DNA from: Sphaeroforma arctica JP610
Taxonomy: Eukaryota
DNA length: 55,058 bases
Reading direction: 5' to 3'
NCBI RefSeq assembly: GCF_001186125.1
Contig: NW_014040496.1
Coordinates: 20,315-75,372 of the forward strand
The notes beneath the pieces are model-generated. The model saw nothing but the letters and a program-made list of their open reading frames with translations, had not been told where the DNA came from and made no database searches. The position numbers and the translations under genes were made by a program. Below, in pieces: positions 4,000 through 35,698 of the stretch. The stretch's first letter is position 1; every line of letters starts with the position of its first letter.

Positions 4000-6900
4000 G
4001 GTTATAGCCTGGTTCGATACTAAGTCCGAAAAGAAAAAACCCCCAAAAAAAAACAACCACACTAGTACATTTCAATATGGTGTGAGCTCACTTCAAGAAC
4101 CAACAAATGATGGCACTGCGATCACTACACTGGCAAAACGCTTGTGTACCAATGAGCAGCGTACCATTGAAGTTACCAACTACCGTTCCAAAGTTGTTAC
4201 ATCCACTAAACCGTCCCCTAAAAAACGACCATCCTCTCCAGTACCCGCTTGCTCACCAATGAGCAGCGTACTATTGAAGTTGCCAACTACCGTTCCAAAG
4301 TAGTTAAATCCACAAAACTGTCCACTAGAACACGACCATCCTCTTCAGTACCTAAAGTATTAGTCCGCCCAGCAGTTTCTGAAGCACTTATGTCACCTAC
4401 TGGCTCTTCTTCAAAGCAGTATTTCCAAATGGCAAGCCTCCTTCACGCTATACCTTCGAAGAAGTGTGGCGATCCCACCCTATTTTGAATCGTCACCATC
4501 TTCTCTCGTATCTGCCATCGAAACTATTTCCCGAACGCAACCGTCGAGGCCGAGCAACCAGCATCATCCAAATTTGTATTCCTGCTCATGTTGAACCCAG
4601 TTTGAACCGAATTACGAATGATTTCTGGAAGTGGCGCCCTAACGAAAATATCGATCTACGCTCCAATAAGCACACAGATTCAGCCAAAGCAGCATTTATA
4701 TATTATCTTCAAACCAAGCGCGAGGCCCAATGTATCTCCTTCTGAACCCTTTGACGAAATCAATAGATATCGAGATCCTCAAATCTACAACCGACAGCAT
4801 TCATAGGGCGTTTTAATCAAAGCGTGGCAACCCCACAACCCAAGACTTCAACGCAATCCAACTACCACATCAGCCGTTTCCCGACTTTTGAAGAAGGCAT
4901 ATCAACTAGAAGCACGTGATGCAGTTGTCGACATGGAAATCAACAATGCAGAACTTGCTAAGAAGATATTCAAAGCGTGACAACCCCACAACCCAAGACT
5001 CCGCACGCAACCTACCTGCCCCATCAGTGGTTTCCCGACTCTTGGAGGAGGCAGATCAACGGGAAACACGTGATGTTGATGACAACATGTAAATTAACAT
5101 AACAGATCCCGTTATCAACTTGTCAGAGGACAAACAATGCTAGGACATATGTAGATGACTCTTCTTAACCCACGAGGTCTCAATATGGATACTCCGACAA
5201 TATCAGATAAGTGTTTGAATGTTATATCGATTTTGGATCAGGTTGATGTTATGTGTGTGGTTGAAACCTGGCGTAAGGTGACTTTTCTAGATCGTGTACG
5301 TTTTTCTACGAAGCATCATATCTTACACCACACTGCACGACACAACCCCTACATCCTTCGCACTGTGGATTTGTATTTTTTTTCCAATCATCACCCATCA
5401 AAATTCAGCCTCATCCATTAGTGACCATGTGCGAAATTCTTCTCCCTCGTTGATATTTGAATGGCTGTATTCTACCTCCCACTCAACTCCTTAATAGAGG
5501 CAGAAGTTGAACAATGCATGAATCCCTTTAAGGCTGGCAACTTTCAAGCAGATGTAGTTGGGGGTGATTTTAATTTCAAAGCTAGACAGTATGGTCACAC
5601 ATCCACGATCAATGAACTGCGCAAAAAGACGGTAGAGGACACTACTCTCAGTGCCTGGCGCCTACAATACCTCCATACGGGAAGACCTACCGGTACGGAG
5701 CACGCGTACCACAGGCCAACAACCTCATCCTCTCTTCAGACACACCTTCTTGCGGATCACAGTATCTACGAAGGCCACAAATTTGGTCTCGATCTTGAGG
5801 TGGTCCAAAATGAATCAAGAATACGTCTTCGGCGAGTGCCTCCGTCTCAATCACTACCCCAGCACCAGAGTCTTCCATCTCACGGCTACAACCGGTATCA
5901 CCACCGACTGCATCATTTACACGAAAAGACCCGCACCCTGTTCTTTCAAGCTAAGATCCGTGAGCATCAACATATGTTACGGTCATGCCTGACAATACAT
6001 GGACCGTCAAACGAATTGGAGCGTATACTTTTCAAAATTGGCGCTACGCAGCGAGCCCTGCCATTTTTGGAAGTTACTACTATGACAATGACAAACCGTG
6101 GGTACAACGACTGCAGAATCACACGTTCCGCCCCCGATCTATTGCCCAGCACACCATTCAAATGTACAGGAATGTTTATCGCACATCAATGTCGATCATC
6201 GCGTCAGCATTGTATACCGGGTGTCCAGGATTCGGGCGCTGCACTGACGGACTATTACCAATACCTCTTCAACTCAACTAACCCACACGTCATCCCACCA
6301 GACACAACACCAACACCTACATCGAATGCAATTGTTCTCTCGGAGATGGTGTTGGAGGCAATACTGCGATATCCAGACAACGGTCCTGGTTCAGATGGTA
6401 TCCATATCCTTCTCCTTAAGGCTGCAGTAGAACGATCAACTGAACCCCCGACTATGGGACGCCCTGACCCTGACAGTCCACTTATTAGCATTTTGGCTGA
6501 GGCATTCTCTGCCCTTTTACTGGCTGATACATTCCCTAGAGCTCTTAACTGTACTCTCTTGACAGCCCATCCGAAGAAAGCAAACACGGATATTGCATCG
6601 CTGCCGAATTTCGACCGAAAACCTTAACGCATATTGTTCGACGCAGTTTTTAAGAAGTGCTTCCTACAGCGGATAACAAATCATACAGGATCAACCACCA
6701 ATGCAACTCAAGCTGGTTTTAATTCACGCTACCCCTGCCATACTCATGCCCTAGCCGCGATAAAATCTGAGACACAATCCGAAGACTCCTGGAATGATGT
6801 GTGTCTTGATATTGCTAAAGCATATGATAAGGTGGTCCTCCCGCGCAAATGGATACTGTTGCGCCACGCTGGAATGCCAGAAAACTGGATCAATCGTCTC

Positions 6901-8672
6901 CGTGCATTGTTCGAGAATATCCCCACACGGGCAACGTATCCTTTTAGGCTTTCACCTCTATTCCATAGAACGAACGGCAAACTCCAAAGTTCGATTGTCG
7001 GTCACAGCTGTTTATCATTTATATGGACTAGCTATTACGCTTGCGCAATTTCGGCCGAAACTCCTTCGAACCTACATCTTTTTAGACGACACGCGGATGC
7101 AGGCTCTGCAGTCTATTCTGTTGCAACCCTTCTTGGACGCGATCGATGATTGGGGTCGCCAATTTGGTCGAGACCAAGGGATTCTTAAGCCCCGAAAGAA
7201 ATCGTCTTGTATGTTGCATGCGGTACCGCCTCTCCGTATCAAAGAAAATCTCATCACGCCAACGCTAGTAGGCTTTCCAAATGCCAACAATCAAAAGACG
7301 CCTACTAACTCCGCCCATGCCCATGGCGGCGGAACTCTCTGACATCTACTCGCAGCCTTCTAAATACTTAGGATTTCAACTGTCCTAGGGTATGCCGGGT
7401 ATTAACTTTGTAAAACACATGGACAACTACGTGGCAGCATTACTCCAGGCTATAGTTTTCTTCCGGGCGTACGGGTTTTATGGATTCAGCTGGCGCCATC
7501 CGCAAAATCGGTTGGAAATATTTAAGACATTCATTCTTTCAACGGTCACCCATGGTCTGAACATCATTGCATGGGCTCCACCTGTTTGGCATGCCGCGTT
7601 AAAGCCACTGTACGAGCGATACAACTCAGGACAAATCCAAGCAGCAACCATCATAACAGATACTATATTTCCAAAACTTCCGTACCAGCGCATAAGGCTT
7701 TTTCGCTTCTGCGGATTACTTCCAGCGCCCAGATTTGTGGAGTACCTTAGTGGCTGCCTGGGACTACATCTTGACTCGATCAACAGTACAACCCTACTCG
7801 CACCACTTACGAGACCCGCTTGGACACGTAGAAGACCTACGGATAAATTCCCGTTCAGTATTTACGTTTATCTATAATCAACAGGCGGGTGCACACCTCA
7901 ACACAAAGAACTTCGTAAGCTCCACGAGTAGATCCGACATACTACCACTCAACGTCTCACAACTAAGGCGATAGCAGGCAAGGCTCGCCGCCAATACTTC
8001 TATCGACTTATAAAGTGAGAACCTCTCATCACGGACCGGGACAAGCCTTTATATGATAGCTTTACCCAATACCGTGAACACACCCCAATCTGCCTTTGTG
8101 CCATGATAGCAACCAACACGTTGTCGTTCAAATTGCTTGACTATTGAACTGGTGGATACCTCTGTCCCGTGTGCCCCGAAGATAGGACTTTTACGTCCAG
8201 CCATTTTGCTTGTATCACTTTCCTAATAAGGCGACTTCTGGAGGGCCCTAATCTACCCCCAATTACAACAACTACAGAATCAATCATGAACAGCAGGCAC
8301 CAATTTATCTCCATCCAGTACTGGTCGATAGGATGATGTTCCCTATACCCCGTCTCAATACTATACTGAAGTAATATTTTCATATTTCGGTACCGACCAA
8401 ATCGTCGAGACTTCTGATACCGCCTATGATATTTCCCGTGTCTATGGCTAGCCAGAATATTCAAAATATATCAGTTGTTTGATCCATCGACATGAGCTAA
8501 CGCACTGTATGTATTCCATCGTTATATCACTCGCCCCAAGCTTCTCGCGGCAGTTCGACAATCTTAACTTCCCTTCAAATTTCCCAGAACTTCTCCGACG
8601 AATATGAAGCCTGATAAGCATGTAGACATATAAATATTTATCTAAATTGTAAATAAATACTATTATCCCTAT
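4000..8672 (+). mobile_element. Near full-length, degenerate non-LTR retrotransposon (LINE): ORF1-like region, then APE endonuclease - RT - Cys/His C-terminus
   Basis: APE motifs are LLNPRGL, VMCVVETW and VVGGDFN. RT motifs are GPGSDGI, TQAGF, CLDIAKAYDKV, FLDD and FKYLG (~7358). Further motifs are RLEIFKTFILST and the C-terminal CPVCPEDRTFTSSHFAC. There are many frameshifts, and the stop is at 8605-8607. The 5' boundary is approximate. Confidence 0.9.
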
Positions 8673-10023
8673 GTTAAGAGGCTTTTAAAAATAGGAGGCT
8701 ATGAATATGGTCATCAAAAATGCACACCAAATTTATTGTGTTTGATCAAGTAGCTATGTTGATATTTAATCATAGCCTTCGTTTATAATCTTAAATTGAT
8801 TTTGTTTTGTTTTGACAATTCCAAATTTTTTTCTTCAAAATGTGTGTTGTACATTAGCCCTATTTTGATTTAGTGGGCCAAATATGTGTTGTTGCATACG
8901 CCATACATAGGCTACTAAATAAACGAATAAAACATTGCATAGCCTTCTAAAATGGTTCAATTGTTATTTTATATTTAATTAGAAGGCTATGTATGCTATC
9001 ATTGTTATGGTGCCTGGTGGCTATTTTTTGTCTTTCTTTTTCTTCTTTTCCCCATGCTTCGTATAAATATATGTGTTCTGCAGCACAAATGGGATGAACA
9101 CATCAACACAACAGTATTTTGGGTTTGTTTGGTTGACGTCTCGAGAACCAATAGATTGCATTCTATAGAACTTTCAATATGATTGAACTAGAGGATGTAC
9201 AGAACCTTGAAATCAGATAAGTACTAAAAATTTGAATCGAAGTGCAGAACTTTGGCACGACCGGCCAACATAAAATAGAATGAAATCCTCTCATGAAGTA
9301 GGAGCAATACGTAACAGCCGCCTTGCAACATGATTTTAACTAACAACCAAATTCTACCAAGCTGTGCTCATCCCCTGCGCGTCGTAATGTTTTTTCATGT
9401 TATTTATACATCAAGAAATCAGTGGTGAGCTCTTCGTACTATTGAAGCTCAGGGCTTTGAAAGAACAAATCCGTACTAGCTTACCATGGCAACATAATGG
9501 GTAACGTTTGGGATGTAGAGTGATTATGAGCATTTTGCATGTAAATGAGTGTGTGATATTTGCAAACCATGTAAGCAAAACTAAGTGAGTAGTCAGTTAC
9601 AGCATATATCAGTTTATCCAAGAATCAAGGTATACTGCAATCCAGTGATTTTCGACGAACCTTGACAGCGGAAGTGGAATGAAGTTGGAAAACGAATGCA
9701 CTACTAGGTTCTTCGATGTTGAATTAACGAATGAGGGTGCATTTCGCCAGGAAAATTTAGCTCAAGGGTAAACATATAGCGTGGAATGCACCTGCAGAGC
9801 GTTTACAACTTATGTACTAAACTCTGCAATGAACATGGCTTTTCCCGTCAAAATTGTTGCTTGCCTTCAAGCATGAAATTTGTGTATGTATTCTTTTGAT
9901 CAACAGCATGCTACGAAGGTCGCCTGGAAATAAACTTTTGCGAAAGATATTGCAATACGAGGAAGTATTCAACAGTTTGATTGATTGTAAAGAGTTCTTG
10001 AAGCCTTGTACACTGTGTGAGCT

Positions 10024-10240
10024 TAAATGAGCCTTTTCTTATAGATTGGTAAGGCTAGCCAGCTTTATATTAAAATAGGTGAATGACTGAACCTACGTAG
10101 TACCGCAAGGGCTTTGATCTTAGTCCGCACGATCCGCTCCGAGGTAGATTTATTTGTACTATATTGGTTGGTTCAGTCATTCACCTACTTTTCCACAAAA
10201 CTGGCTAGCTTTACAAAACTATAAGAAAAGACTCATTTTA
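10024..10240. mobile_element. MITE-like element with ~75-80 bp imperfect terminal inverted repeats
   Basis: The left arm AAATGAGCCTTTTCTTATAG...TAGGTGAATGACTGAACC matches the reverse complement of the right arm GGTTCAGTCATTCACCTA...CTATAAGAAAAGACTCATTT. There is no ORF. Confidence 0.75.
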
Positions 10241-10254
10241 TACCAAGAAGGGTA

Positions 10255-12800
10255 AGGTTATCATCAGCAATTCTGGTTTGGAGTATAGTTGGAGGCTGGC
10301 CGGTACCACACCAAACAACTAATGTATTTGGAATATCCTGGTTAGCCATATTGGGACGTATCACGGCGATACCATAAGTCTCGAAGATTTGGTCGGTACC
10401 GAAATCTAAAAATATAACTTCAGTAGAGTGACGAGACGGGGTATAGGGAACATCATTCTATCGACCACTACTGGATGGGGATAAATTGGTGTCTACTGTT
10501 CATGGATAAAAATTCTCTCGAGATGTTCGTGGTGAATCCATATGCCGTGGTAGTCCCGCCGATCTGTAGTTGTAATTGGGGGTAGATTAGGGCCCACCAG
10601 AATGCGCCTTATTAGGAAACTGATACAAGCAAAGTGGCTGGACGTAAAAGTCCTATCTCCGGGGCACACAGGATAGAGGCATCCACCAGTGCGATAGTCA
10701 AGCAATTTGTACATAACGTGTTGGTTGCTATCATGACACAAGGGCGGATTGGGGTTTGTTCACGGCAATAGGTGTTTTATATGGGAGGGCTTGTATCGGT
10801 CCGTGATCGAAAGCTTTCCTTACAAGTCGATAGTAGTATCGGCGGCTAGCCTTCCCTGGTATGTTCTCAGTTGTGAGACGTTGTGTTGTATTATGTCGGA
10901 TCTTCTCGAGGAGCCGTGATAGGAAGCTTTCCTTACAAGTATATAGTAGTATCGGCGGCGAGCCTTCACTGGCATCTTTTTAGTTGTGAGACGTTGTGTT
11001 GTATTATGTCGGATCTTCTCGAGGAGCTTACGGGGTTCTTTTGTGTTGAGGTGTACACCCGCTCCTCGATTCCATATAAGCGTAAATACTGAACGGGAAT
11101 TTGTTCGGAGGCCTGTTACGTGTCCAAGCGGGTCTCGCAAGTCGGGCAAGTGGGTTTGCACTGTTGATCGAGTCAATATGTAGTCCCAGGCAGCCGCCAA
11201 AGTACTCTGCAAACTGGCGTGCTGGAATTAACCCACAGAAGCGGAAAAGCGAAGTGTCTGTTATGATGGCTGCTGATTGGATTAGGCTGGATGGTACCGC
11301 TCGAACAGCGGTTTCAATGCGGTATGACATATAAGTGGAGCCCATGCAATGATATTTAGACCATAGGTTGCCGTGGAAAGAACGAATGTCTTGAATATTG
11401 TCAACCGATTTCGCGGATGGCGCCAGCAGAATCTATGAAACCTATACGCCCGGAAGAAAACTATAGCCTGGAGTAGTGCTGCCACGTGGTTGTCCGTGTG
11501 TTTCACAAAGTCGATACCCGGCATGCCCTGGGATAGTTCAAATCCTAATTATTTGGAAGGCTGCGAGTAGATGTCGAAGAGTTCCGTCGCCATGGGTATG
11601 GGAGGAATAAGTAGACGTCTGTTGAGAGTGTTGGCATTTGGAGAGTCTACTAGCGTTGGCATTATGAGATGTCCTTTGATATACGGAGAGGCGGTACCGC
11701 ATGCAGCATACTCGACGATCTCTTTCGGAACTTAAGGATCCCTTGTTCTAGACCAAATTGGCGACCCCAACCATCGATCGCGTTCAAGAAGGGCTGCAGC
11801 TGAACAGACGGAGGATCCTGGATGTGCGTATCATTTACAAAGAGGTGGGAACGGAGCAGTTTCGGCCGAATTGCACAGACGTGGTAATCACGTAGGTAAT
11901 GTAGATGATTAAAAGATGTGGATCCACAATCAAACCTTGGAGCATACAATTCGTTCTATAGAATAAAAGTGAAAGCTTTCCACGACCTCTTCCGTGTGGG
12001 GACTTTTTGAACAATATTCTTGAACAATCCACGGCGACAATAAATCCGGTTCTAGCATTCCAGCGTGGCGCAACAGCATCCACATGTCCGGAAGGATCAT
12101 TTCATCGTATGCTTTAGCGATGTCAAGACACACATCATTACAGGTATTTTCGAATTGAGTCTCAGATTCCAACGCGGCTAGGAAATGGTATGACAGGAGT
12201 AGTGTGATTTGAATATAGCTTGAGCGGCATAGGTGGTTGAGCTGGGGTGATTAGTTAATAGCTGTAGCAAAAGAATGCGTCTAATGATTTGCGTTAGGGT
12301 TATCGGTTGGAAGTCGACAGGCGATGCAATATCCGTGTCTTATTTCTTCAGAGGGTTGCATATGAGCAGACTGAGGAGCCTGGATGCGCGTATCATGCAC
12401 AAAGAGGTAGGAACGGAGAAGCTTCGGCCGAAATTATGCAAGCGTAGCAACCGGGTAGTCCATGTAGATTATCAAAATATGTGGATCCACAATTAAGCCT
12501 TGGAGCATTTAATTCGTTCTATGAAATAAAGGTAAAGGATTCCCACGATACGTCTCCCGTGTGGGGACATTCTTGAACAATGCACGGCGACAACTATTCC
12601 AGTTCTGGTAAACTAGCATGGCACAACAGCATCCACATGCGTGGGAGGACCACTTTATCGGATGCTTTAGTAATGTCAAGACACATCATTCCAGGCATCT
12701 TCAAATTGTATCTCAGATTCCATCGCGGCTAGGGCATGAGTATAGCAGGAGTAACGTGATTTACATACAGCTTGAGTTGCATGGGTGCTCCATACAAGTA
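10255..12800 (-). mobile_element. Second, truncated and rearranged copy of the same LINE family (RT plus C-terminal region), inverted relative to copy 1
   Basis: ORFs match copy 1: MPGIDFVKHTDNHVAALLQAIVFFRAY, NDVCLDIAKAYD and CPVCPGDRTFTSSHFAC. The RT segment occurs twice (~11810-12230 and ~12370-12790), and there is a ~110 bp internal duplication at ~10810-11030. Confidence 0.9.
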
Positions 12801-14769: not shown

Positions 14770-16329
14770 TGTAACGCGGCGACGGGTTGATCGTTAGGAG
14801 TATTCGTAGTAGTGTTTGTGGATGTGGGCTCGCAGTGCCATCTGTCAGCAGTAAGACAGATGGAGCGGTGTGTGTAGGGAGTGCCGGATGATTAGGGAGA
14901 AAGACAGTGACACGGGTCACAAGGGAGACGGGTGGTGGAGCGAGAAGACGTAACGCAGTATTGTAGAGGTTGAGAGTAGCTTATAAGATACGACCAGAAG
15001 AAACAATAGACCTCTTCTCAAATGCGAATCCTGCAGCTAGGTAAAGTCCTAAGCTGAAGGACTCGCATTGAGTCTTTATTTGTGTTTAGTATTTTCTACA
15101 CTAGACTCAATATTTACTTAGATCATTTTACAAATGGTGCTACTCCAGTATACGTGTACTACGAAGAAAAGAACATTGAGAAGAGGGTGGCGATTCGTGA
15201 GGAAATATTGGCCATGCTCAAAGAAGGTAGAATCGAACAATGCGGTTGGAAGACATTGTGGAATCTTCAGCCGGTTGTGGTGCCCGAGAGGGAACAGGGT
15301 GATTGGAAAATTTGTGCAAATTCAATGCCTCTGAATCGCCAGATTAAGTATCGTGAGTTTCCCGGGGTATAAGTATTATGCCAAATTGGATATGGCTAGG
15401 GGGTACTACTTGCAGATTAAGTTGTCGGAAACCGCTCGAAGTTACACGACCTTTACGTTGGAGGGTCAAAGATATCGCTATACTGTAATGCCCATGAGCC
15501 TTGTGGACTCCGGTTTTACCTTTCAATCATTGATAGAGGGAATTATATACATAGATGATGTGATTATGTGTTCTATGACAATTGACGAGCATATAGTGTT
15601 GATAGAAGAAGTGCTGCGGCGATTGAAGAAGCGGATCGTTAAGATACGGATGAGTAAGTGTGAGTTTACGAAACTGCAAGTGGAGTTCCTTGGGCACATT
15701 TTTTGGCAAGGTGCTTCTTGGATTAAAGACGAGGCTGCGAAGGCACTAAGAGAAACGCGCACTCCAAGCACGAAAGAGGAACTTCGAATATGCTACAGCT
15801 AACTGGTGGCATCGCTATGTGCCAAACTTCTCTCTTGTTCTGCAACCTGTCGCCAAGTTATGGAAGAAAGAAGTAACATTTAACTGGGGATCAGAGCAAG
15901 GTTGTTGACTAAGCGTATGGTCAGACATAAAATGCAGCAAATGTGGGATTTTATACTGTATTATATATCAAATTTATAGGGTGATACATGGAAGCCATTT
16001 ATTGACGCATTGAAAGAGAATCCACCTCTAGTGTCACCACGGAAAGTTGATATCCTGGTGCTGCACACAGATGCAAGTCGCATGGGTTGTGGAGCTGTGT
16101 TGTATGTATAACGCAACGATGTGATGCTGCCAGTTTCTTTTGCATCTACGCGCTGGAGTCCGGCACAGCAGCTCTACTCTATAACATACACTGGAAGCCT
16201 TAGCTATTGTTTGGGCTTACGATCGATGGGCACGACTGTTGGATCGTCCGCCAGGGTTTGCATACATTGAGACGGACCACTTGCCATTGTTGGGCCTCTG
16301 GAAACGCCTGGATGATGATGACACGGCGC
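14770..16329 (+). mobile_element. Gypsy element A, 5' part (putative LTR 14770-15132; degenerate RT and RNase H), interrupted by Gypsy B
   Basis: The putative LTR runs TGTAA...TTACA and is followed by AA-TGGTG (PBS-like). RT motifs are KLDMARGYYLQI, YTVMPM, YIDDVI, KCEF and VEFLGH. RNase H motifs are HTDASRMGCGAVL, EALAIVWA and ETDHLPL. Gag and protease are not seen. Confidence 0.85.
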
Positions 16330-17177
16330 TGTAATAAGCCGGGCCTCCACATTAGACTCTATGTTATAAACGTACTCTTAAGCAGTACGTAAATTATAAA
16401 CGTATTCTTAATAGTACGAGGAACTTAATTTTCCTAAATGTACTCTTAATAGTACGAGGAACTTAAGTTTCCTAAATGGACTTTTAATAGCACGAGGAAC
16501 TTAAGTTTCCTAAAATGGTTTTTAATCGTTTTAATAATTAATACCTTTTCCATTTTACATATCAGATATTTGGACGAGGCCATTAAAAGGCCTCAGTAAA
16601 ATACCAAACATAAAAGAATTGGTCTAGTTCTATTAATAGAACTTTAGTTACTTTCCAACTTTATTTATATCTGAATACCTCGGTAGCGAGATGGCTCAAC
16701 CGAATATAGGTTTCTAGGGACTATTAACGTTGCCTAGTTTATCCTCCGATCAGCCAACCAGATGTGCCAGTCTGATGAACGCTAAGTCGGTACTTCTTGA
16801 TAGTGGCAAGTTATTGGTTAAGACAATAACTAAAGGCATCAAGTATTTTATTATTATTTTATCTATTTTTTTTCTAAAGATAGGATTTTATGAGTCTCTC
16901 GGATTCACCCCAGTGAAACATACCATAGTTTCTAATAGAGCGACAACGAAACACTAAATAAAATCCCTTCGGCGGAAACAGTACTGAGAGGATTATATAT
17001 AGGCAATGTCTCAGCCTCACAATCCCTCAGAGTATTGCTGTTTTCACGAGGCATACCTAACTTGACTAAATGTCTCATTTCGTTTATTTACTTTGATATT
17101 TACACGATACTTAGAATTTACCTACGCGTTTATTTATTCTAAAGCTTTAGTATCGCCTCAATAGACCGAATCTTACA
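16330..17177 (+). repeat. 5' LTR of Gypsy B (~848 bp)
   Basis: The termini are TGTAA...TTACA. The end is defined by where it diverges from the copy ending at 24511. A TATA-like TTATATATAGG lies at ~16993, and there are three 38-bp tandem repeats in U3. Confidence 0.9.
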
Positions 17178-17303
17178 CATTTTAAAGTTAGCAAAGGTAT
17201 TAATTACTTAGACTACTTAAGCGTAAATGTAGATTAACTACCACAAAATTTTCTTGTCCAAGCTAGTCCTTAAGAGACAAGCTAGTAGTCATAAGTTAAG
17301 ATT

Positions 17304-19994
17304 GTGACCAAGAAAGACAATACTCCTTCTAAGAAGTGTAGAGCTGAAAAGAAGAAGATGGATAGAGAAGCCGCTAGCGCTGCCGCAGCTACTGCTGCTG
17401 CAGAAGCAACCGCCGCCGCTGCTGATGCGTTTAACCGCACTGTAGCCGAAGTACTTGCCTCTGACAATAATAGTCAAAAGGACAATGCTTCAGATAAGAA
17501 TGTAGCCATTCCGCTTAAGGAGACTACTCCCACTTACAGAGCCCGAGGGCCAACTATTGCAAAGAAGTGAGACAAGGGACACGTCTCAAGACGCCCCAAC
17601 CCATTCTTCTGACGAAAATCAGAAAGGAAAGTCCCCAATTATAAGGGCGTCCCCAATTATAGGGGACAAGGACAAATCTCAGAAGGAACCTATAATGGAA
17701 CCAGAAGAGGAGGCAAGCTCAAGTGGCAACCCCGAATCTACGTCCGAGACTACTAAGCTAACGCGCATAAGTAAGTTAATTACTGAAAACACTGATCTTA
17801 AGAATCAGTTAGCTACCCTTATGAAAGACTTGACTGTTGAACATGTATATCAATTGTATAGATCAGGAAAACACATACAGCACTTACGTGAGCATATTTC
17901 CCCGGGCATTACTGAAGCCCTACAAAAGTGGACAGAACGTCGACAGGCAATTACGCCCGAAGAACGTAAAGACTCAAGCGCTACGCCTGAGGCATATGAT
18001 CCAGATGTGCTCAGCGTATCTATACCTTACGAGGCACTACCGCCAGTAGTTCAGGCTAATTACTCGCCTGTTCTGACACCCGGCCGTGAGTCACCCGTCC
18101 TCGAGGGTATTATAGACTCAGAGGCAGGTAGAAATACTCCGCCACTTTCACCCAATAGGGATGACAATCGTCGGAAACCAGTTAAGACTGGGTATGTTAT
18201 CCAGACGCATGAATCACCCAAAATTATAATACCAACCACTATCCGAGGAACAGAGCACCGAAAGGCCTCGACCATGAACTTTACAAGGGGTAATAAACAC
18301 CCCCGTAGACGTGCTAACGAAGTCAAATGTAATCGCTTCGATCGCACAGCACTACATCAACCCGCAGAGGATTTTCACTCTGACGAGGTGACCGAACTTA
18401 ACAAATCGGTCGACGATTATACCATTAAAATGGAAATCGCCCACGATGCGTATCATGCTGATGATGTAGCATACTTTGCGAATATGATTGCGATTAAGCA
18501 AAAGCGCATTGATCAGTTATTTCAGGCCCAGCGTGGACAAGACCACAGGGACAACCAGAAGTACAAGGGACAGATCAGTCGACTTAAGTCGAATTGGGAT
18601 GCCAACAGCAAGCAGGTCGAGTTTATAAACAACCATGACCTCGACACGCTAACCCGTACGCTTAATGCGTTTACGGTCATGCTGGAGACGAATGATATCG
18701 CTCCCCAGCAATGGATCTCTGCTTTAATACAGACGTTTGACCCTACAGGTACAAGTTATTTGATCCTGCAGCGACACCAGCATGAGCTAGACACTTGTCG
18801 TGACTGGCCAACTGTGTGTTGGTTGGTTACATCCTTGTTAAGTAAGGACATGCGTAGCCCTGGACTGAGTTCAAATTTAACTGAACCAGGTTGAGAACAC
18901 GCCTATTCGAAGCTAGATGCTGACCTGAAACGTCCAGATAAAACAAAGGACAAGGCACAGCGATGGTACGAGTTCCTGGTTATGCACGTGTTCTGTAAGA
19001 ACATATATCAGTTACTTCAGGCCCAACGTGGACAAGACCACAGGGACAACCAGAAGTACAAGGGACAGATCAGTCGACTTAAGTCGAACTGGGATGCCAA
19101 CAACAAGCAGGTCGAGTTTATAAACAACCATGACCTCGACACGCTAACCCGTACGCTTAATGCGTTTACGGTCATGCTGAAGACGAATGATATCGCTCCC
19201 CAGCAATGGATCTCTGCTTTAATACAGACGTTTGACCCTACAGGTACAAGTTATTTGATCCTGCAGCGACACCAGCATGAGCTAGACACTTGTCGTGACT
19301 GGCCAACTGTGTGTTGGTTGGTTACATCCTTGTTAAGTAAGGACATGCGTAGCCCTGGACTGAGTTCAATTTTAACTGAACCAGGTTGAGAACACGCCTA
19401 TTCGAAGCTAGATGCTGACCTGAAACGTCCAGATAAAACAAAGGACAAGGCACAGCGATGGTACGAGTTCCTGGTTATGCACGTGTTCTGTAAGAACATA
19501 TGGAAGAGTTGCGACGTAAACACGCGACTGAGGCTCGAGACAAGGGACATGAAACAAAGTTTTATCTATCCCGACTTACGTGGGAACAGTTTTATGATAC
19601 TGTATCCGCCCTTTCCTCCGCACATCGAGTAACATCTAAAGGAAAAGCGGCTGTTAAGAAGCCGCGGGAGCACACCGATCACGGGTACGTATCCAGGCAG
19701 ACCTCAAACGAGAGACCCCAACATATACGTGCTCGCGACTCCACTCAATCCACGCGACCCAATAAACGGGCACGCGCGGGAGCGAAGGACATGGAACCTC
19801 CATTTAAGGAAATTAAGAAATGTTCCGACGCACAGTGTGGGTATGACATGTACCAATTAACCCCTAACGGTTATTGCAATGGCAGACATGCATCCACCTG
19901 TACACACTTTCTTATTAAGTGCGACAAGTGTGAGAAGACCAATGGCTATCACACTAAGTCTTGTGACAAAAAGCCCAACATTAAGTTGGAGTGA
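17304..19994 (+). pseudogene. Gypsy B gag-like ORF (frameshifts, premature TGA, 495-bp tandem duplication)
   Basis: It lies between the 5' LTR and the protease. The C-terminus is Cys/His rich (CNGRHASTC...CDKCEKTNGYHTKSC). Confidence 0.75.
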
Positions 19995-20049
19995 AGGTAC
20001 TACCAGGTACAATCGTTACACAGACAATACAACGACTCTTTAAATGAGC

Positions 20050-21925
20050 GTGTAATAATCCCTGTATATTGCAATGGAAATACAATCCTTGCGTTGATTG
20101 ACCCTGGTTCAGAAATTTCATGTATATCCGATCGCTTTGCATTAATGAAAGATATCGAAAGGAGAACACAAACAACTCACCTCATGTTAGCTGATGGTAA
20201 AACTGCTAAGTGTGATACCACGGCCACAGATGTCAAAATCTCAATGGCCGATGATAGGAATATCACTACCCAAGCTGTGATAGTTAAGATGTCACAGAAG
20301 TACGACATTATAGTCGGAATGAGTGATTTACTCACTTTAGGTATAACCGTAACGGGTCTACCAGATGTCACAGAAGTACGACATTATAGTCGGAATGAGT
20401 GATTTACTCACTTTAGGTATAACCGTAACGGGTCTACCAAATAACATAGATACATTAAAGGATCAATCAGACGATAACTGTCTGAATCCATATAAGCTCC
20501 CGTCAGACACAGTCAAGGCATTAATACCTGTCTTTGCGAACAAAATCATGGATCTGATTCTAGTTAATAGAAAGATAAAGTTCACAGATTGGGCAAAATT
20601 CCGCTTTAACGACGGATATGTCCGTCTTGACTTAACCAAGATAGACTTTACACAGTTAAAGTGTCCCTCAAGGAACTATGCATCCTGGAGACACGAGGCT
20701 GAGGTAAAAGAACAAGTTGAGAAATGGCTAGCAGATGGAGTGATAGAAATTAACTATCAACAGACGCCAGTTAACTTGGCGCTGCTAGCCGTAGACCAAC
20801 ATAACTCGGACGGATCGTTTAAGAAAGTCAGAGTATGTTTAGAAATGAGTCCAGTAAATAAATTATTGCCGACTCATAGCTTTCACTTACCTCATATTAA
20901 CGAGCTACTGCGAAGGATGGAAGGTGCTACAGTATTTACAACTATAGACCTTACACAAGGATACCATCAAATACAGGTATATGAACCACACCATAAATAC
21001 TTTAGCTTTACGTGGAAAGGTAAACAATACCGGTTCAGAGGTGCACCTTTCGGGTTACACTCTTTACCAGCATTCTCCCAACAAGTAATGGGAGAAATGT
21101 TTGCAGACATGCCTAACGTGCAAGTCTTCATAGATGACATAGTCATCTTTTCCAAAACTAAGGGCGAACACGCCGCATTAGTCAGACGAGTCCTTAAGAG
21201 ACTCAACGAGCAAAACTTCAAGATTAACGAGAAGAAGTGCCACTTCGCAATGAGCGAAATACAGCTCTTAGGCTACCATATATCTGGGGAAGGTATTAAG
21301 ATCGACCCCGGTAAAGTAGCACACCTGTTAGATTGGCGAACACCAACTACAGGAAGAGATGTTAACAGCATGTGTGGGGTTGTAAACTTCTTTTCCGATG
21401 GAGTACCACACTTAGCTGACTACTTTAAACCTTTTGGACACTTAAGATGTCATAAAGGCAAACTAGGAGACTTGTGGACTAAAGGATGTGATGACGCATT
21501 TAAAACGCTCAAACACGCAGTCCAACAAGCCCCAGTTGTACAAGGACCAGTCGATGGCGTGCCGTTTGAAATAGCAACGGACGCCTCCGACTTAGCCTTA
21601 GGAGGAGTATTATATCAGGTTATAAATGACAAACCTAGATATATACAATTCTTTAGTCGAGCAATGAATGCTTCACAGTTGAATTATCCAACTGTTAAAC
21701 AAGAGCTATTAGCCATAGTGGCAGCTTTAACACACTTCCGAGATTACTTATACGGAACAGCATTTACGCTGATGTGTGATCAGAAATATCTTCAATATAT
21801 GAACGAGATGAAACCCGACTCACAATTACTGAGTCGCTGGCATGATACAATATCAAAGTTTCATTTTGATATAAAACATCTGCCAAGGAATACATAACCG
21901 TTTACCGGATATGTTATCACGCTTT
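20050..21925 (+). pseudogene. Gypsy B protease - reverse transcriptase - RNase H
   Basis: The protease motif is ALIDPGSEISCI. RT motifs are TIDLTQGYHQI, APFGL, FIDDIVIF, KCHF and LLGY. RH motifs are TDASDLALGGVL, ELLAIV and HLPGIHNRLPDMLSR (the last after removing one inserted A at ~21886). Confidence 0.95.
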
Positions 21926-21967
21926 GTACCGGACTTTAATAAATCCGTACGTGAGTTACTAGCCACT

Positions 21968-22365
21968 GACTGGAAGTGTAATCCCAGGTGGTTTGATTTG
22001 GCTCAAAATATATTTAGGCCACATACCATAGATATGTTTGCTGCACATCATAATGCACAACTATCGAATTACAGAACTTTAAATCATCCTTTGGGAGACG
22101 CTTTCCAAACAGACCTCTCCCAACATAACGCGTGGGCTAATCCACCATGGCAGTTAATTGCCCAGTTTAAATTATGTTCAAATACATAAAGCTACCATCA
22201 CGTTGTGTTGCCCATTACGGAATAAAGATCCATGGCTCAATAAATTGATCAGCATGATACAACGCGAGCCAATATATTTAGATAGGGAAGTAGATACTTT
22301 CCTATATCAGGGTACCCGAGCCGTCCAGAAGACGCCCTGGAGACATACTAAAATATGTCGTATAG
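21968..22365 (+). pseudogene. Dam-like (phage/DIRS-type) DNA N6-adenine methyltransferase domain within pol
   Basis: The translation is DWKCNPRWF...PHTIDMFAAHHNAQL..Y......GDAFQTDL...AWANPPWQLI [frameshift] LNYV...ATITLCCP...PW. This matches the DW / DxFA / DAF / NPPW / PxxxxxPW pattern of DIRS-type MTases. Confidence 0.85.
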
Positions 22366-22757
22366 GTCCCATTGGAACAACAAAATGGACCCCTTCTGAG
22401 ACCTTCCTTAACACGGTCAAAGAATCAGAGATTCTACTCTCTACCCAATTAAACGTTAAGCAGTTCAAAGGCAACACAGCATTTAACGTCTGTGCACAAG
22501 AAATACAATCTACTAATGGCACTGTTAAGAAGCGTCAGTCTCTAGCTAGGACTCTGTTTAATAACATAAAGTCCAAGCCCGAGGTCTTTCAAACCCTATT
22601 TCTAAAGGGATTGATGAAAGACAATCCTGAAGCGTATACACATACAATGTGACTATTTAATAAGTCAGGTGTATCTAACGCACATGAGCGCACCTCTGAC
22701 ACTCTTGCGAAAGCAGGACAGGAGTCAGGAAACACTACGGACTTAGAGACCACGCAA

Positions 22758-23968
22758 GTGGATTCTCAACACCCTACCTTTATTCTGGAAGAGCAAAATG
22801 ATGAGAACATTCGTGCTTGGCTGACGCAAAATCATAAGCTGAAGCACCAGAACGTAGTAGGCGCACTTAATGATGCTAAGCAACATGGGATCGCGCACCC
22901 TAAGCTGGCAACTTTAGTTGACAGAGTATATCAGTCATGTACAGACTGTGATCTCAATCAGATCAAGCGCTATGGTTTCGCACCGCCTAAGAGTGTGACT
23001 GAAGATGTTCCATGGCGCAGGGTCATCGTTGATCTGGTTGACCTGCCCACGTCCGAGCACACAGGCGACCGTTACGTATGCCACTTCTTTGATGTGGCGT
23101 CACGGTGTAATTTGCTCTATCTATTAAAGGATAAGAATACGCAGACCGTGGCAGAATTATGTTGCTAAGTCTTTGCTGACCACGGGTGACCGGGTATTAT
23201 GTGCACTGATAGCGGGTAGTGAGTTCTGCGATGACGTTATGGAATCGCTAGTACTCGTATCAGGTATATGCCATAAGAGAGGTGTGCCATATAAGCCGCA
23301 AACGCAAGGCGCGAATGAAACGCGCCATAGAAGACTTAAGTTCTTTTTGCGTACTGCATTAACGGATGATGTAGATGATTGGCCGTACCACCTTAAGTGG
23401 GTACAAACACCAATGAACGAGTGTGCTGATCCGGTTACAGGAACTACACCCGCTCACTATTTTCGTGGCAGATATAGTGAGTTACAAATACCCTTTAACA
23501 AGGACGAACCTGATCACCATGAGCTACCATGGTTAGAGAAGGGACAACGTATTTATAACGTTGTACATCCTTGCTTGTGAGAAATACGCAATATAACCAT
23601 ATAAAAAAGGCAAAAGCGTTGGATCACTACCAAGAAGATAACAGAGTATCAGGTTGGTGACAGAGTTAACATCCGTCAACGTAATTCCGATGCTACTGTA
23701 TTGACATCTAAATGGATAGGTCCATATATAATCTCTGTAGCAGACACTAAAAATGAAACGTACGAGGTAAATAACCCCGATGGTTCTAGTGCGCTTAATA
23801 TAAGTCGTATTCCGACTACAGAGACTATACTCGCAAGAAGACACGACTCTAATGCCCCTCTTGATCGTTCTGAATTTAGAGACATTATATGGAGAACGGA
23901 TAAGAGAGGCTACACATACTATCGTACACGCTTTATAGACGGTACAATAGCTGAGTTGACTTCAGATG
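22758..23968 (+). pseudogene. Gypsy B DDE integrase with HHCC zinc finger and GPY motif
   Basis: Motifs are HKLKH...CTDC, PWRRVIVDLVDL, FFDVASR, (TD)xGSEF, YKPQTQGANE and KWIGPY. It runs into an assembly gap at 23969, and the remaining C-terminus probably lies at 24512-24611. Confidence 0.9.
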
Positions 23969-23988
23969 NNNNNNNNNNNNNNNNNNNN

Positions 23989-24511
23989 CGTCTGAAGGAA
24001 CGGAAGTTAAAACTTATCCGCCCACAGCATTTATCCCGAGCCTTAATGCTCATCCTTCATATGTACTTAACGTTACCTAGTTGATCCTCCGATCAACCAA
24101 CCAGATGTGCCAGTCTGATGAAGGCTAAGTCGGTAATTCTTGATAGTGGCAAGTTATTGGTTAAGACAATAACTAAGGACATCAAGAATATTTTTCTTCT
24201 TCTTCTAAAGATAGGATTTTATGAGTCTCTCGGATTCACCCCAGTGAAACATACCATAGTTTCTAATAGAGCGACAACAAAACACTAAATAAAATCCCTT
24301 CGGCGGAAACAGTACTGAGAGGATTATATATAGGCAATGTCTCAGCCTCACAATCCCTCAGAGTATTGCTGTTTTCACGAGGCATACCTAACTTTACTAA
24401 ACGTCTCATTTCGTTTATTTACCTTGATATTTACATGATACTTAAAAAATCTGTCTACGCGTTTATTTATTCTAAGGCATTAGTATCGCCTTTATTAGAC
24501 CGAATTTTACA
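23989..24511 (+). repeat. Third, variant LTR inserted into the 3' end of Gypsy B pol
   Basis: From ~24068 it matches the 3' half of the element's LTR and ends TTTTACA at 24511. The segment 23989-24067 differs from the U3 of the other two LTRs. The 5' end is hidden by the N gap. Confidence 0.8.
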
Positions 24512-24750
24512 ATATGTGCTTAAGACACTGAAGCGTAAGAAATGTCCAGTCGACCACCACGGACCTACTGGACCTAAGCCCAAAAATCATAGGGTAACCG
24601 AGAACGCTTAAATTCTCCGCCTGAGAAACATTAAATATATGTTATGCTACTTTATGTTTCGACCCGTTTTTTTCCTTTCTCGCTTTTGACCCATAATCAG
24701 CTTGAGTGAGTAACTTGCTTCTCATGGGTCTCAAAGCTGGGTGAGGGCTG

Positions 24751-25506
24751 TGTAATAAACCGGGCCTCCACATTAGACTCTATGTTATAAACGTACTCTT
24801 AAGCGGTACGTAAATTATAAACGTATTCTTAATAGTACGAGGAACTCAAGTTTCCTAAATGTACTCTTAATAGTACGAGGAACTTAAGCTTCCTAAATGT
24901 ACCCTTAATAGTACGAGGAACTTAAGTTTCCTAAATGTACTCTTAATAGCACGAGTAACTTAAGTTTCCTAAAATGGGTTTTAATGGTTTTAATAATCAA
25001 TCCCTTTTCCATTTTACATATCAGATATTTGGACGAGGCCATTAAAAGGCCTCACTAAAATACCAAACATAAAGAGTTGGTCTAGTTATATTAATAGAAC
25101 TTTATTTACTTTCCAATTTATTTATATTTGAATACTTCGGTAGCGAGATGGCTCAACCGAATATAGGTTTCTAGGGACTATCAACATTACCTAGTTGATC
25201 CTCCGATCAGCCAACCAGATGTGCCAGTCTGATAAAGGATAAGTCGGTAAGTCTTGTTAGTGGCAAGTTATTGGTTAAGACAATAACTAAAGACATCAAG
25301 AGTTGTTTTTCTTCTTCTAAAGATAGGATTTTATGAGTCTCTCGGATTCACCCCAGTGAAACATACCATAGTTTCTAATAGAGCGACAACAAAACACTAA
25401 ATAAAATCCCTTCGGCGGAAACAGTACTAAGCCTCACAATCCCTCAGAGTATTGCTGTTTTCACGAGACATACCTAACTTTGACTAAATATCTCATTTCG
25501 TTTATT
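24751..25506 (+). repeat. 3' LTR of Gypsy B (3'-truncated, TATA region deleted)
   Basis: It starts TGTAATAAACCGGGCCTCC and has four 38-bp repeats. It lacks the final ~90 bp and has a ~26 bp deletion at ~25429. Confidence 0.9.
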
Positions 25507-25509
25507 TTA

Positions 25510-25960
25510 GGGTTTTATGTCACACGTGGGCCTTATGATGGGGACCACTACGATATTCGTGCTCCAGGTGGTAACAACGTCCGTTTGCATCGCGACCAGC
25601 TTAAGCTTGCAGCAGGCGGCTCTCCTGGTACAGCTAAAACTGTGCGCGCACTTGTTACATTGAAGGAGTTCATGAAATCTTTTGAACGATTCAACGAGGT
25701 CCCTGATGATCTTGACAGACATGTTAGAAAGGGGCCGATTGGTTTGGGGATTGCCAAAAATTCTTCACTACATTGCAGAAACTCTGCCCTGAGGATAGGA
25801 GAACTTTGGATCCAGCATTGGCGAAGGCGAAATGTACTGGGATCGCGAGCACTTGGAATAGCTTCAAGTCACTTATCAATGCGATCCGTAGCTTTACCGC
25901 TGATGCTGACTGCCGTACGAAGAGACTATAATCTTTTTAAAAGCTCAGTGAGCGTGTAGG
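25510..25960 (+). mobile_element. Probable post-integrase C-terminal remnant of a Gypsy element, likely element A
   Basis: VTRGPYDGDHYDIRAPGGNNVRLHRDQLK resembles the region following the integrase GPY/F motif (H..xLK). Confidence 0.5.
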
Positions 25961-26850: not shown

Positions 26851-28170
26851 ATAAATATGGGGGAGGGGGAAACCCCCCCTCCCTTGATGGCCATATTTGT
26901 TGTGTTTTTGGTTTGTTTTGTTTTGAAATAAATATATAAATAAATAAATAAATAAATTCACTGCCTCCATGCCTCTAAATATTTAAAAAATATATAAATA
27001 AAATCAAACTGTTTACAGTCAAACCTCAAGATAATGTCCAGGGTCCGTCCTGAGCCAAAAAGTGAACAATTAAAGAGATAGACAGACTCTGGGACAGGTA
27101 CACCCTCTATACGTTCAGGCGCTGATGATGACCTCAGCTCAAGCCGTTTCAAGTTAAAGCTTTTATATATACCTTGGCTATGCGTCAAAGTTCAATTTCT
27201 ATTACATACATGGTCCTGTAAATTTTCATGGAGAACCCAGTAATTGGAGTGGTGGTCAGGTCTATTGGGCATGTAGTAATACTTTCTTCCTCGTATGTTG
27301 GCATGATGTTTGTTCGTCAATGACAACTAACTGGCTTCAGGCATATATAGCTATATTTGTGTGGAATAGTATTGTACTTGTGTATACTGTGTAGTCTGTC
27401 GGCTCAGCCTGCAGGTCTGCCGCAATTTGTGTGTGTTTGTATAGACTGTAAACGCCGCCACTGTTTGGTATTTAATTGTAAAAGTTGTTGGGAAAATGTG
27501 CTGTCAGTTAAAAATAGGAAATGCGTCATGACTTTCAATGCTAGAGTTTATAATCGATCGAAACAGCTGCTATAGCCCATTTCGTGATTTTTAGGTGCAT
27601 AATCGAAGTGCAATTTTGGGGGTTTCGTTGGTTATATATTAGCGTTGAACCCGTTTAAAAAAAGTTTATACGACATGAAAATAAACATTAACGTTCAATT
27701 TTTAATCAGTACACCCATAACGTATTGAGCTTGGCGCTGACCTGTGGCCGTGGGACAGTATCAGAGCAAAGCATTCTTTAGATACTTCGACTTGCGTAAT
27801 TATATTTTTACTCATAGTCTTTCCGGGCTGTACTCCATCACAATTTGTAAAATAAAGTGAAATATGTAGTCCTAATATATATATGGGGTCACCCATATTT
27901 AAAGTGGACAGTTAAAGAGGTAGTATTTAGAAGGCTATGTCATACGAAAAATTGTCTTTTGTTTTTAAAAAACAAAAACAAAAAAAACATATATACAGTA
28001 CTTTTTTACAACAAAAATATAGAAAAACATAAATAATAAATAATAAATAAAATATTTACATTTCAAGTTTAAAAATAGTAATATTGATGAAGACATTCTA
28101 CAGTTATGTAAATAGTTACATGAACTGGATGGGACCGCAGTAGTAGGGTTGGTTTCGGGAGGCATTCATC

Positions 28171-35698
<7,528 letters not shown>

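What the first reader, a model, noticed from the sequence alone, without database searches (positions are those of the whole stretch)
21890..22400. Gypsy LTR retrotransposon carrying a Dam-like N6-adenine DNA methyltransferase between RNase H and integrase
Seen: directly after the RNase H end motif (HLPGIHNRLPDMLSR, restored by removing one base) the same frame continues into DW...PHTIDMFA...GDAF...WANPPW. After a further frameshift it continues ...ATITLCCP...PW, then a linker, then an HHCC/DDE integrase. The element has a protease and direct TG..CA LTRs. Established: NPP(Y/F/W) is motif IV of amino-methyltransferases, and a phage-Dam-like domain after RNase H is a hallmark of DIRS tyrosine-recombinase retroelements. 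Standard Ty3/Gypsy pol is PR-RT-RH-IN. Inference: this is an integrase-type LTR lineage that captured an adenine MTase. It might mark its cDNA or LTR with 6mA (or 4mC) for host mimicry or self-activation. The NPPW motif is intact, but this copy is frameshifted. I cannot confirm from the sequence whether the architecture is already published.
Basis: partly seen in the sequence, partly recalled or inferred. Interest (0 to 1): 0.9.

Follow-up and report, generated by a model that had tools for sequence, protein, structure and literature searches.

The report
Decayed methylase-bearing gypsy element, known kind
This is a broken copy of a gypsy-type jumping gene whose intact relatives carry an adenine-methyltransferase-fold domain between RNase H and integrase, a real design that a May 2026 preprint already described, and the domain likely methylates the element's own nucleic acid, although no substrate has been shown.

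Summary
21965-22382 encodes a Dam-like domain (Pfam PF05869, E 3.5e-5; DMFA and NPPW motifs) directly after RNase H and before an HHCC/DDE integrase, in an LTR element nested in another gypsy element. This copy is dead (frame breaks, stops, truncated 3' LTR). Two intact relatives have RT-RH-Dam-IN in one ORF (one also with the protease), and their Dam domain is as conserved as RT (61-72% versus 67-72%). So this is not a one-off DIRS insertion. The RT lies outside DIRS-like RTs (100/100). RT-core and Dam trees group it with Abeoforma proteins, and the Dam tree also with a Sphaeroforma protein; the RT+RH tree supports this only weakly. The architecture and this lineage are published as 'DAM-LTRs', 'Ichthyosporean DAM-LTR lineage' (bioRxiv 10.64898/2026.05.21.726589). 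This scan also found the design on other DNA (23 notes, at least 3 genomes). Function is open: the preprint's E. coli assay was negative, and one close relative has CPPW. One addition: the best solved-structure match is the mRNA-cap methyltransferase CAPAM/PCIF1, ahead of T4 and E. coli Dam, so RNA substrates deserve a test.

The parts
16330..17177 (+). 5' LTR, 848 bp, TG...CA
   Evidence: 94.6% identical to the 3' LTR over 717 gap-free columns
17359..19994 (+). gag-like region, broken, with a 495-bp internal tandem duplication and Cys/His-rich end; no Pfam gag match (gag identity inferred from position)
   Evidence: (family D11)
20043..20345 (+). aspartic protease (active-site motif reads DPG, as in P0003)
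   Evidence: Pfam PF13975 E 1.6e-7; 47% identity to P0003
20764..21285 (+). reverse transcriptase core, Ty3/Gypsy type
   Evidence: PF00078 E 9e-28; best PDB match Ty3 RT/RH 4ol8, E 8.9e-59; trees
21562..21922 (+). RNase H, frame break near its end (about 21885)
   Evidence: PF17917 E 3.6e-29; 72% identity to P0003
21965..22382 (+). Dam-like / PCIF1-like adenine-methyltransferase-fold domain, about 140 codons; DMFA at 22031-22042, NPPW at 22139-22150; frame break at about 22165
   Evidence: PF05869 E 3.5e-5; 61% and 72% identity of its halves to P0003; fold of the P0002 domain
22383..22832 (+). poorly conserved linker with an in-frame stop at about 22650
   Evidence: no match to the P0003 linker at this place; 29% identity between P0002 and P0003
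22833..23949 (+). integrase: HHCC zinc finger (22833-22979), DDE core (23004-23472), C-terminal part (23629-23949); stops and a frame break; no chromodomain
   Evidence: tblastn with P0003 slices, 43%, 63-73% and 55% identity; rve in P0003 E 5.9e-9
24067..24511 (+). extra 3'-half LTR fragment ending in CA, absent from some other copies
   Evidence: contigs in all 4 runs join 24058 to 24512 (table 5)
24737..24750 (+). purine-rich stretch before the 3' LTR (polypurine-tract-like; inferred from position)
   Evidence: sequence
24751..25507 (+). 3' LTR, starts TG, truncated at its 3' end

Best explanation
The stretch is the Dam-like domain of a decayed Ty3/Gypsy LTR retrotransposon of the published DAM-LTR kind, likely of its ichthyosporean lineage, and in active copies the domain would be made as part of Pol and likely methylate adenines of the element's own nucleic acid during reverse transcription. 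Shown here: the domain order PR-RT-RH-Dam-linker-IN, intact in relatives; an amino-methyltransferase fold (predicted model); conservation equal to RT; this copy is dead. Inferred: a single ancient capture from a DIRS-like element followed by co-inheritance; packaging with Pol into the particle; methylation of the RNA:DNA hybrid or nascent cDNA so that new insertions arrive with 6mA that host AMT1 maintains as transcription-permissive chromatin (the preprint's model). My odds: identity as a DAM-LTR 0.95; ichthyosporean lineage 0.8; the cDNA/hybrid-methylation mechanism about 0.45.
For: Intact ORFs P0002 (RT-RH-Dam-IN) and P0003 (PR-RT-RH-Dam-IN), neither with a chromodomain. Window pieces tile both colinearly. 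Identity to P0003: RT 67%, RH 72%, Dam halves 61% and 72%, integrase core 63-73%, linker none. P0002 versus P0003: RT 62%, Dam 67%, linker 29%. Read sets hold many diverged copies with cover across the domain, and contigs in the runs differ from this copy at its three frame breaks. RT-core trees put the window in a clade of 11 rows, all Dam-bearing, with Abeoforma whisleri P0007 (SH-aLRT 99; 99/99). The Dam tree gives a matching clade of 17 rows (96/87) with Abeoforma P0004, P0006, P0007 and Sphaeroforma arctica P0017. 15 of the 16 clade members printed keep NPP(W/F). AlphaFold2 model pLDDT 93.6, with top fold matches among adenine-N6 methyltransferases. The preprint reports more 6mA and more transcription on DAM-LTR than on other LTR insertions in A. 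whisleri and S. arctica.
Against: No activity has been shown: the preprint's E. coli expression gave no extra 6mA. P0003, one of the two closest intact relatives, has CPPW in place of NPPW yet keeps the domain at 67% identity to P0002. Best fold match is the RNA-cap enzyme CAPAM (Z 10.3, rmsd 3.5, 139 aligned), above T4 Dam (Z 7.9, rmsd 3.1, 108) and E. coli Dam (Z 7.7, rmsd 3.7, 113). Iyer et al. judged DIRS copies likely inactive. With RT+RH the 11-row clade drops to 77/35. AU tests did not reject a tree holding the window trio next to the DIRS-like group (p 0.064; p 0.134). The host organism was not established (no genome held). Codon-level selection (dN/dS) was not measured.
Confidence: 0.8

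Rival explanations
1. The domain is an RNA methyltransferase like its structural neighbour CAPAM/PCIF1. It would N6-methylate the cap-adjacent or another adenine of the element's own transcript, affecting stability, translation, packaging or priming. The 6mA seen on genomic copies would then be a consequence of transcription and host AMT1.
For: CAPAM takes the top 5 Foldseek ranks (best E 4.1e-5) and the top VIA-align rank (Z 10.3, next 8.7). 8 of 60 aligned relatives match Pfam PCIF1 PF12237 (best E 1.7e-7). Iyer et al. place DIRS methyltransferases in the PCIF1 clade. The dsDNA assay in E. coli was negative, and the preprint says the eukaryotic domain lacks part of the target-recognition region of Dam.
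Against: 52 of 60 relatives match the phage Dam family PF05869 against 8 of 60 for PCIF1. By sequence profile CAPAM scores only E 1.6. CAPAM needs a helical domain for cap and RNA binding, which the 148-residue model does not include. A shared fold shows no function.
Confidence: 0.25
2. The domain is a catalytically dispensable nucleic-acid- or SAM-binding module of Pol (structural role in reverse transcription or packaging, or a PCIF1 mimic). The 6mA enrichment is laid down by host AMT1 alone.
For: P0003 has CPPW; across 152 aligned rows motif IV is NPPW 57, NPPF 44, FPPF 15, HPPW 4, CPPW 3, others fewer. Negative heterologous assay. Proposed for DIRS by Iyer et al..
Against: 15 of 16 printed members of the window's clade keep NPP(W/F) across 35-46% overall identity, together with the D-x-F-A motif, which a purely structural role would not obviously require.
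Confidence: 0.2
3. The segment is a one-off insertion of a DIRS fragment into this gypsy copy, or an assembly chimera.
For: The domain is flanked by a frame break on its 5' side, the locus is nested and rearranged, and it has an N gap at about 23969-23989.
Against: P0002 and P0003 carry it in frame in one ORF; 21 of 181 proteins with a near-complete RT carry both Dam and integrase; contigs of four runs cover the domain and differ from this copy at the breaks.
Confidence: 0.01

Closest known systems
Ichthyosporean DAM-LTR lineage (Pirum gemmata, Abeoforma whisleri, Sphaeroforma arctica) of Fernandez-Moreno et al., bioRxiv 10.64898/2026.05.21.726589
   Same: Ty3/Gypsy RT, Dam domain with NPP + aromatic motif, DDE integrase, no chromodomain; nearest named relatives are Abeoforma P0004 (46% identity to the window domain) and S. 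arctica SARC_09892 (40%).
   Different: A separate family at about 40-46% Dam identity and 33-42% RT+RH identity to the other clade members. Whether this very family is in the preprint's supplementary tables could not be seen. The main text does not state the position of Dam within Pol for this lineage; here it is RH-Dam-linker-IN.
DIRS tyrosine-recombinase retrotransposons with RT-RH-MT
   Same: Same Dam-like domain directly after RNase H; 44 RT-RH-Dam proteins without integrase came up in the domain search.
   Different: RT and RH are Ty3-type (20% mean identity to DIRS-like rows versus 36-38% to LTR rows); protease, DDE integrase and direct LTRs are present; no tyrosine recombinase found among the element's ORFs.
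CAPAM/PCIF1 mRNA-cap adenosine N6-methyltransferase
   Same: Best solved-structure match (Z 10.3, rmsd 3.5, 139 of 148 residues aligned); catalytic NPPF in CAPAM versus NPPW here.
   Different: 13-14% identity; no WW or helical domain; substrate unknown here.
Phage/bacterial Dam (Pfam PF05869; T4 Dam, E. coli Dam)
   Same: Best Pfam family; shared methyltransferase core (Z 7.9 and 7.7).
   Different: Only about 110 residues align; per the preprint the eukaryotic domain lacks part of the target-recognition region; no evidence for GATC specificity.
KnitGypsy-Dnmt3 (de Mendoza et al. 2018, PMC5890265)
   Same: A DNA methyltransferase inside the Pol of a gypsy LTR element.
   Different: Cytosine C5 enzyme of unrelated structure; charophyte host.

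Membership tests
Ty3/Gypsy LTR retrotransposon | Pol order PR-RT-RH-IN | tested here: met
   (Dam inserted between RH and IN)
Ty3/Gypsy LTR retrotransposon | RT groups with Ty3/Gypsy, not inside DIRS | tested here: met
   DIRS-like rows form their own side at 99, 100/100 and 100/100 without the window; best PDB match Ty3 RT. AU tests do not exclude a position next to the DIRS branch (p 0.064, 0.134).
Ty3/Gypsy LTR retrotransposon | HHCC + DDE integrase | tested here: met
   PF00665 in P0003 above cut-off; broken in this copy
Ty3/Gypsy LTR retrotransposon | Direct TG...CA LTRs with target-site duplication | tested here: inconclusive
   5' LTR complete, 3' LTR truncated, so no TSD can be read
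Ty3/Gypsy LTR retrotransposon | Primer-binding site after the 5' LTR | tested here: inconclusive
   no TGG start after 17177; self-priming duplex no better than shuffles, 89 of 100 as good; host tRNAs not available
DAM-LTR (bioRxiv 2026.05.21.726589) | PF05869 Dam domain in the Pol of a Ty3/Gypsy-like element | tested here: met
   window piece E 3.5e-5; P0002 stretch E 2.2e-7, 31.1 bits, above cut-off
DAM-LTR (bioRxiv 2026.05.21.726589) | Asn-Pro-Pro + aromatic catalytic motif | tested here: met
   NPPW in window and P0002; CPPW in P0003
Ichthyosporean DAM-LTR lineage | Dam and RT group with Abeoforma/Sphaeroforma/Pirum elements | tested here: met
   Dam tree 96/87 with Abeoforma and Sphaeroforma rows; RT core 99/99 with an Abeoforma row; RT+RH only 77/35; no Pirum row was in the set
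Ichthyosporean DAM-LTR lineage | No chromodomain | tested here: met
   none in P0002, P0003 or the window's C-terminal ORF at E <= 0.1
Ichthyosporean DAM-LTR lineage | Host is an ichthyosporean encoding AMT1 | not testable with these tools
   no genome held; window shows an intron-containing eukaryote with BAR, RhoGAP and kinase exons
DAM-LTR (bioRxiv 2026.05.21.726589) | 6mA enrichment and transcription of copies | not testable with these tools
   no base-modification data; no RNA holder on record
DIRS (tyrosine-recombinase retrotransposon) | Tyrosine recombinase in place of DDE integrase, no protease, inverted or split repeats | tested here: not met
   protease, DDE integrase and direct LTRs present
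PCIF1/CAPAM | WW + helical domain + methyltransferase, cap-specific activity | tested here: not met
   no WW or PCIF1 Pfam match in P0002/P0003; only the core fold is shared; activity untested

The most novel reading that the evidence does not exclude
The 'Dam' of DAM-LTRs is a miniature PCIF1/CAPAM-like enzyme that acts on RNA: the retrotransposon N6-methylates its own capped genomic RNA or the RNA strand of the replication hybrid. That would explain the negative dsDNA assay and make it a retroelement-encoded epitranscriptomic writer.
Probability: 0.2. Interest if true: 0.75.

Novelty: already known. Interest (0 to 1): 0.27.

Why it matters
As an architecture it adds little: DAM-LTRs and an ichthyosporean lineage of them are in a May 2026 preprint. 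What remains open is the substrate. This family is multi-copy and has a natural intact ORF with NPPW (P0002) and one with CPPW (P0003), a ready-made pair for a catalysis test. The fold match to CAPAM/PCIF1, which the preprint's main text does not mention but Iyer et al. 2016 noted for DIRS, points to RNA and RNA:DNA substrates that the published assay did not test.

Tried and rejected
Whole-genome copy survey: no genome held. phmmer of the broken domain against PDB sequences gave only chance amylase hits; the alignment profile found RNase H flanks and CAPAM at E 1.6 only. PHROGs gave only phrog_22740, unknown function, E 0.005. The search for related loci in JGI metagenomes: 39 pattern matches, none confirmed, so no DNA of relatives was obtained and dN/dS was not computed. 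The second search for full-length Dam-bearing relatives by shared words found only P0002 and P0003. ESM Atlas: unnamed eukaryotic clusters at 0.90-0.92, one with Dam on 11% of members; lead only. Self-priming primer site: not supported, 89 of 100 shuffles as good. ApT and GATC observed/expected in the element were unremarkable (internal 0.95 and 1.11). No tRNA genes in the window. Expression: no RNA holder listed; two runs guessed as RNA were laid but may be DNA. AU tests could not reject placing the window trio next to the DIRS branch. A first read-through put X at the wrong place and was discarded. The paper on caulimovirus Dam cited by the preprint was not found.

Full report
OBSERVATION. 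The RT-RNase H ORF (20353-21897) ends its homology at HLP. After a frame break at about 21885, GIHNRLPDMLSR continues in the next frame into DW...PHTIDMFA...GDAF...WANPPW (NPPW at 22139-22150). After a second break at about 22165 come ATITLCCP...PW...TPW. The first half alone matches Pfam Dam PF05869 at E 3.5e-5 (24 bits, below the 28.1 cut-off), its only Pfam match at E <= 0.1. Protease (E 1.6e-7), RT (E 9e-28) and RNase H (E 3.6e-29) lie upstream. The best solved relative of the RT-RH is Ty3 (4ol8, E 8.9e-59).

THE ELEMENT. The 5' LTR is 16330-17177 (TG...CA). The 3' LTR starts with TG at 24751 after a purine-rich stretch and is cut off at about 25507. An extra 3'-half LTR piece lies at 24067-24511; contigs in 4 of 4 runs join 24058 to 24512, so some other copies lack it. 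The two LTRs are 94.6% identical over 717 gap-free columns (K2P 0.057). The element sits inside a second gypsy element, whose RT (15302-15823) and RNase H run up to 16329 and whose integrase-tail-like sequence (GPY, motif name recalled) resumes at about 25510. A deletion appears to have removed the end of the 3' LTR together with part of the outer element, so no target-site duplication can be read. This copy is dead: duplications in gag and at the protease end, frame breaks at about 21885, 22165 and 23214, and stops in linker and integrase.

IS THE DOMAIN PART OF POL? Yes. A search with the domain (X at the break) among longer proteins gave 2 hits of 46 candidates: P0002 (1376 aa, 72%) and P0003 (1400 aa, 66%). 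Both are single ORFs: P0003 with PR-RT-RH-Dam-IN, P0002 with RT-RH-Dam-IN; neither has a chromodomain. The window's pieces tile both colinearly. Identity to P0003 is 67% for RT, 72% for RH, 61% and 72% for the Dam halves, 63-73% for the integrase core and none for the linker. Between P0002 and P0003 it is RT 62%, RH 77%, Dam 67%, linker 29%. The domain is therefore constrained about as strongly as RT; this is protein-level evidence, and dN/dS was not measured. Public runs hold many diverged copies: 61,121 contigs of run X1 were laid, 18,016 of them at 99% or more and 17,388 at 90-95%, with cover across the domain. At the break near 21885, 26, 13, 15 and 2 contigs of X1, X5, X13 and X18 differ from this copy by an indel; near 22165, 17, 14-15, 5-6 and 0; near 23214, 34, 10, 6 and 3. 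No listed piece spans the whole element.

RELATIVES AND TREES. An exhaustive search with the P0003 domain found 1,537 proteins at E <= 0.001, of which 150 were listed. Among all proteins fetched, 181 had a near-complete RT: 21 with Dam and integrase, 45 with Dam only, 105 with integrase only, 10 with neither. I labelled 44 of the Dam-only proteins 'DIRS-like' from their RT-RH-terminal-Dam layout; their recombinases were not checked. In an RT tree of 108 of the 181 rows (6 near-duplicates and most lower-ranked integrase-only rows left out), the window joins P0002 and P0003 (SH-aLRT 99) inside an 11-row clade (99) whose members all carry Dam, including Abeoforma whisleri P0007; the DIRS-like rows lie apart (99). 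A careful tree of 39 rows agrees (99/99; DIRS-like 100/100). The Dam tree of 69 rows gives a matching 17-row clade (96/87) with Abeoforma P0004, P0006, P0007 and Sphaeroforma arctica SARC_09892 (P0017). Against this: with RT+RH the 11-row clade has only 77/35, and AU tests do not reject a tree with the window trio beside the long DIRS branch (p 0.064 and 0.134). The trio is never inside the DIRS-like group, and its RT+RH identity is 16-24% to DIRS-like rows, 33-42% to the other clade members and 30-41% to integrase-only rows. Congruent RT-core and Dam trees fit one capture followed by co-inheritance; direction (from DIRS) is taken from the preprint and was not tested here.

FOLD. AlphaFold2 of the P0002 domain with a 60-row alignment gave pLDDT 93.6, pTM 0.88. 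Foldseek's top 5 matches are human and zebrafish CAPAM/PCIF1 (best E 4.1e-5; 3 matches at E <= 0.001), followed mostly by RNA methyltransferases of the Dim1/KsgA and RlmJ kinds. VIA-align over 48,161 chains ranks CAPAM first (Z 10.3, rmsd 3.5, 139 aligned), then DIMT1 (8.7); T4 Dam scores 7.9 and E. coli Dam 7.7. By sequence, 52 of 60 alignment members match PF05869 Dam and 8 of 60 match PF12237 PCIF1. Motif IV across 152 rows is NPPW 57, NPPF 44, FPPF 15, HPPW 4, CPPW 3, the rest rarer. Of the 16 clade members printed, 15 keep NPP(W/F); P0003 has CPPW. Numbering of the motifs as I and IV is recalled.

LITERATURE. A four-term search returned 2 papers. Fernandez-Moreno et al., bioRxiv 10.64898/2026.05.21.726589 (whole main text read; figures and supplements not seen, and they may list this family), describe DAM-LTRs. 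They define five lineages, among them an Ichthyosporean DAM-LTR lineage (Pirum, Abeoforma, Sphaeroforma) without chromodomain and with conventional Ty3/Gypsy organisation. They report a conserved Asn-Pro-Pro, no 6mA gain on expression in dam-minus E. coli, and more 6mA and transcription on DAM-LTR than on other LTR insertions. They propose methylation of RNA-DNA intermediates maintained by host AMT1. Its main text has no mention of PCIF1, CAPAM or m6Am. Iyer et al. 2016 (PMC4738411; passages only) put DIRS methyltransferases in the PCIF1 clade and think them likely inactive; it was the only paper holding PCIF1, DIRS, methyltransferase and retrotranspos- together. de Mendoza et al. 2018 (PMC5890265; passages) give the Dnmt3-gypsy precedent. 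A CAPAM structure review (PMC8287941; passages) shows the catalytic NPPF and the need for a helical domain. Earlier notes of this scan report the same design on other DNA (23 findings, at least 3 genomes; 8 shown) and none for this genome. I had found the preprint before reading them.

MECHANISM. Shown: domain order, intact relatives, conservation, predicted fold. Inferred: the domain is translated in Pol, enters the particle and meets the element's RNA, hybrid and cDNA there. I commit to methylation of the hybrid or nascent cDNA, seeding 6mA that host AMT1 keeps as open chromatin (about 0.45). It fits the retained NPPW, the negative dsDNA assay and the published 6mA enrichment. Rivals are RNA methylation in the manner of CAPAM (0.25) and a non-catalytic binding role (0.2). 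A one-off DIRS insertion is excluded.

VERDICT. The host was not established: no genome is held, and the window shows an intron-containing eukaryote with BAR, RhoGAP and kinase exons (5 of 90 ORFs scanned had Pfam hits). Interest 0.27. The remaining value is the NPPW/CPPW pair of natural intact proteins and the CAPAM-like fold, which point to testing RNA and hybrid substrates.

Noticed in passing
window 15302-16329 and 25510-25600: A second, unrelated gypsy element (RT 26-29% identical to P0002/P0003) into whose RNase H the DAM-LTR inserted; its integrase-tail-like sequence resumes after the truncated 3' LTR, and the part between is missing.
   Followed up: partly
window 20090-20110; P0003 residues 38-41: The protease active site reads DPG rather than the usual D(T/S)G (consensus recalled), in both the window and intact P0003.
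   Followed up: no
window 17178-17200: No TGG-type primer-binding site after the 5' LTR; a self-priming pairing with the LTR was no better than shuffles. The primer is unexplained.
   Followed up: partly
window 16397-16514 and 24818-24970: A 38-bp unit is repeated in tandem near the LTR 5' end, with more copies in the 3' LTR than in the 5' LTR.
   Followed up: no
window 18502-19296 and 20292-20430: Copy-internal tandem duplications: 495-bp spacing in gag (97% identical) and about 69 bp at the protease end.
   Followed up: no
window 6700-12800: Large degenerate inverted duplication (arms 74-91% complementary); ORFs at 5461-7146 have weak endonuclease/RT Pfam hits, so probably a LINE-like element.
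   Followed up: no
window 28147-32484 (+); 39441-42319 (-): Host exons: BAR and RhoGAP domains, probably one gene, and a protein kinase.
   Followed up: no
proteins P0050 and P0136: Single ORFs with an AP-endonuclease domain, Dam before RT, RNase H and an integrase zinc finger; very long RT branch. May correspond to the Euglena LINE-like DAM-LTRs of the preprint (not checked).
   Followed up: no
proteins P0014, P0025, P0027, P0110: RT-RH-Dam-IN elements (three with a chromodomain) outside the window's clade; P0027 and P0110 group with DIRS-like P0056 in the Dam tree (99/95), consistent with a separate capture.
   Followed up: partly
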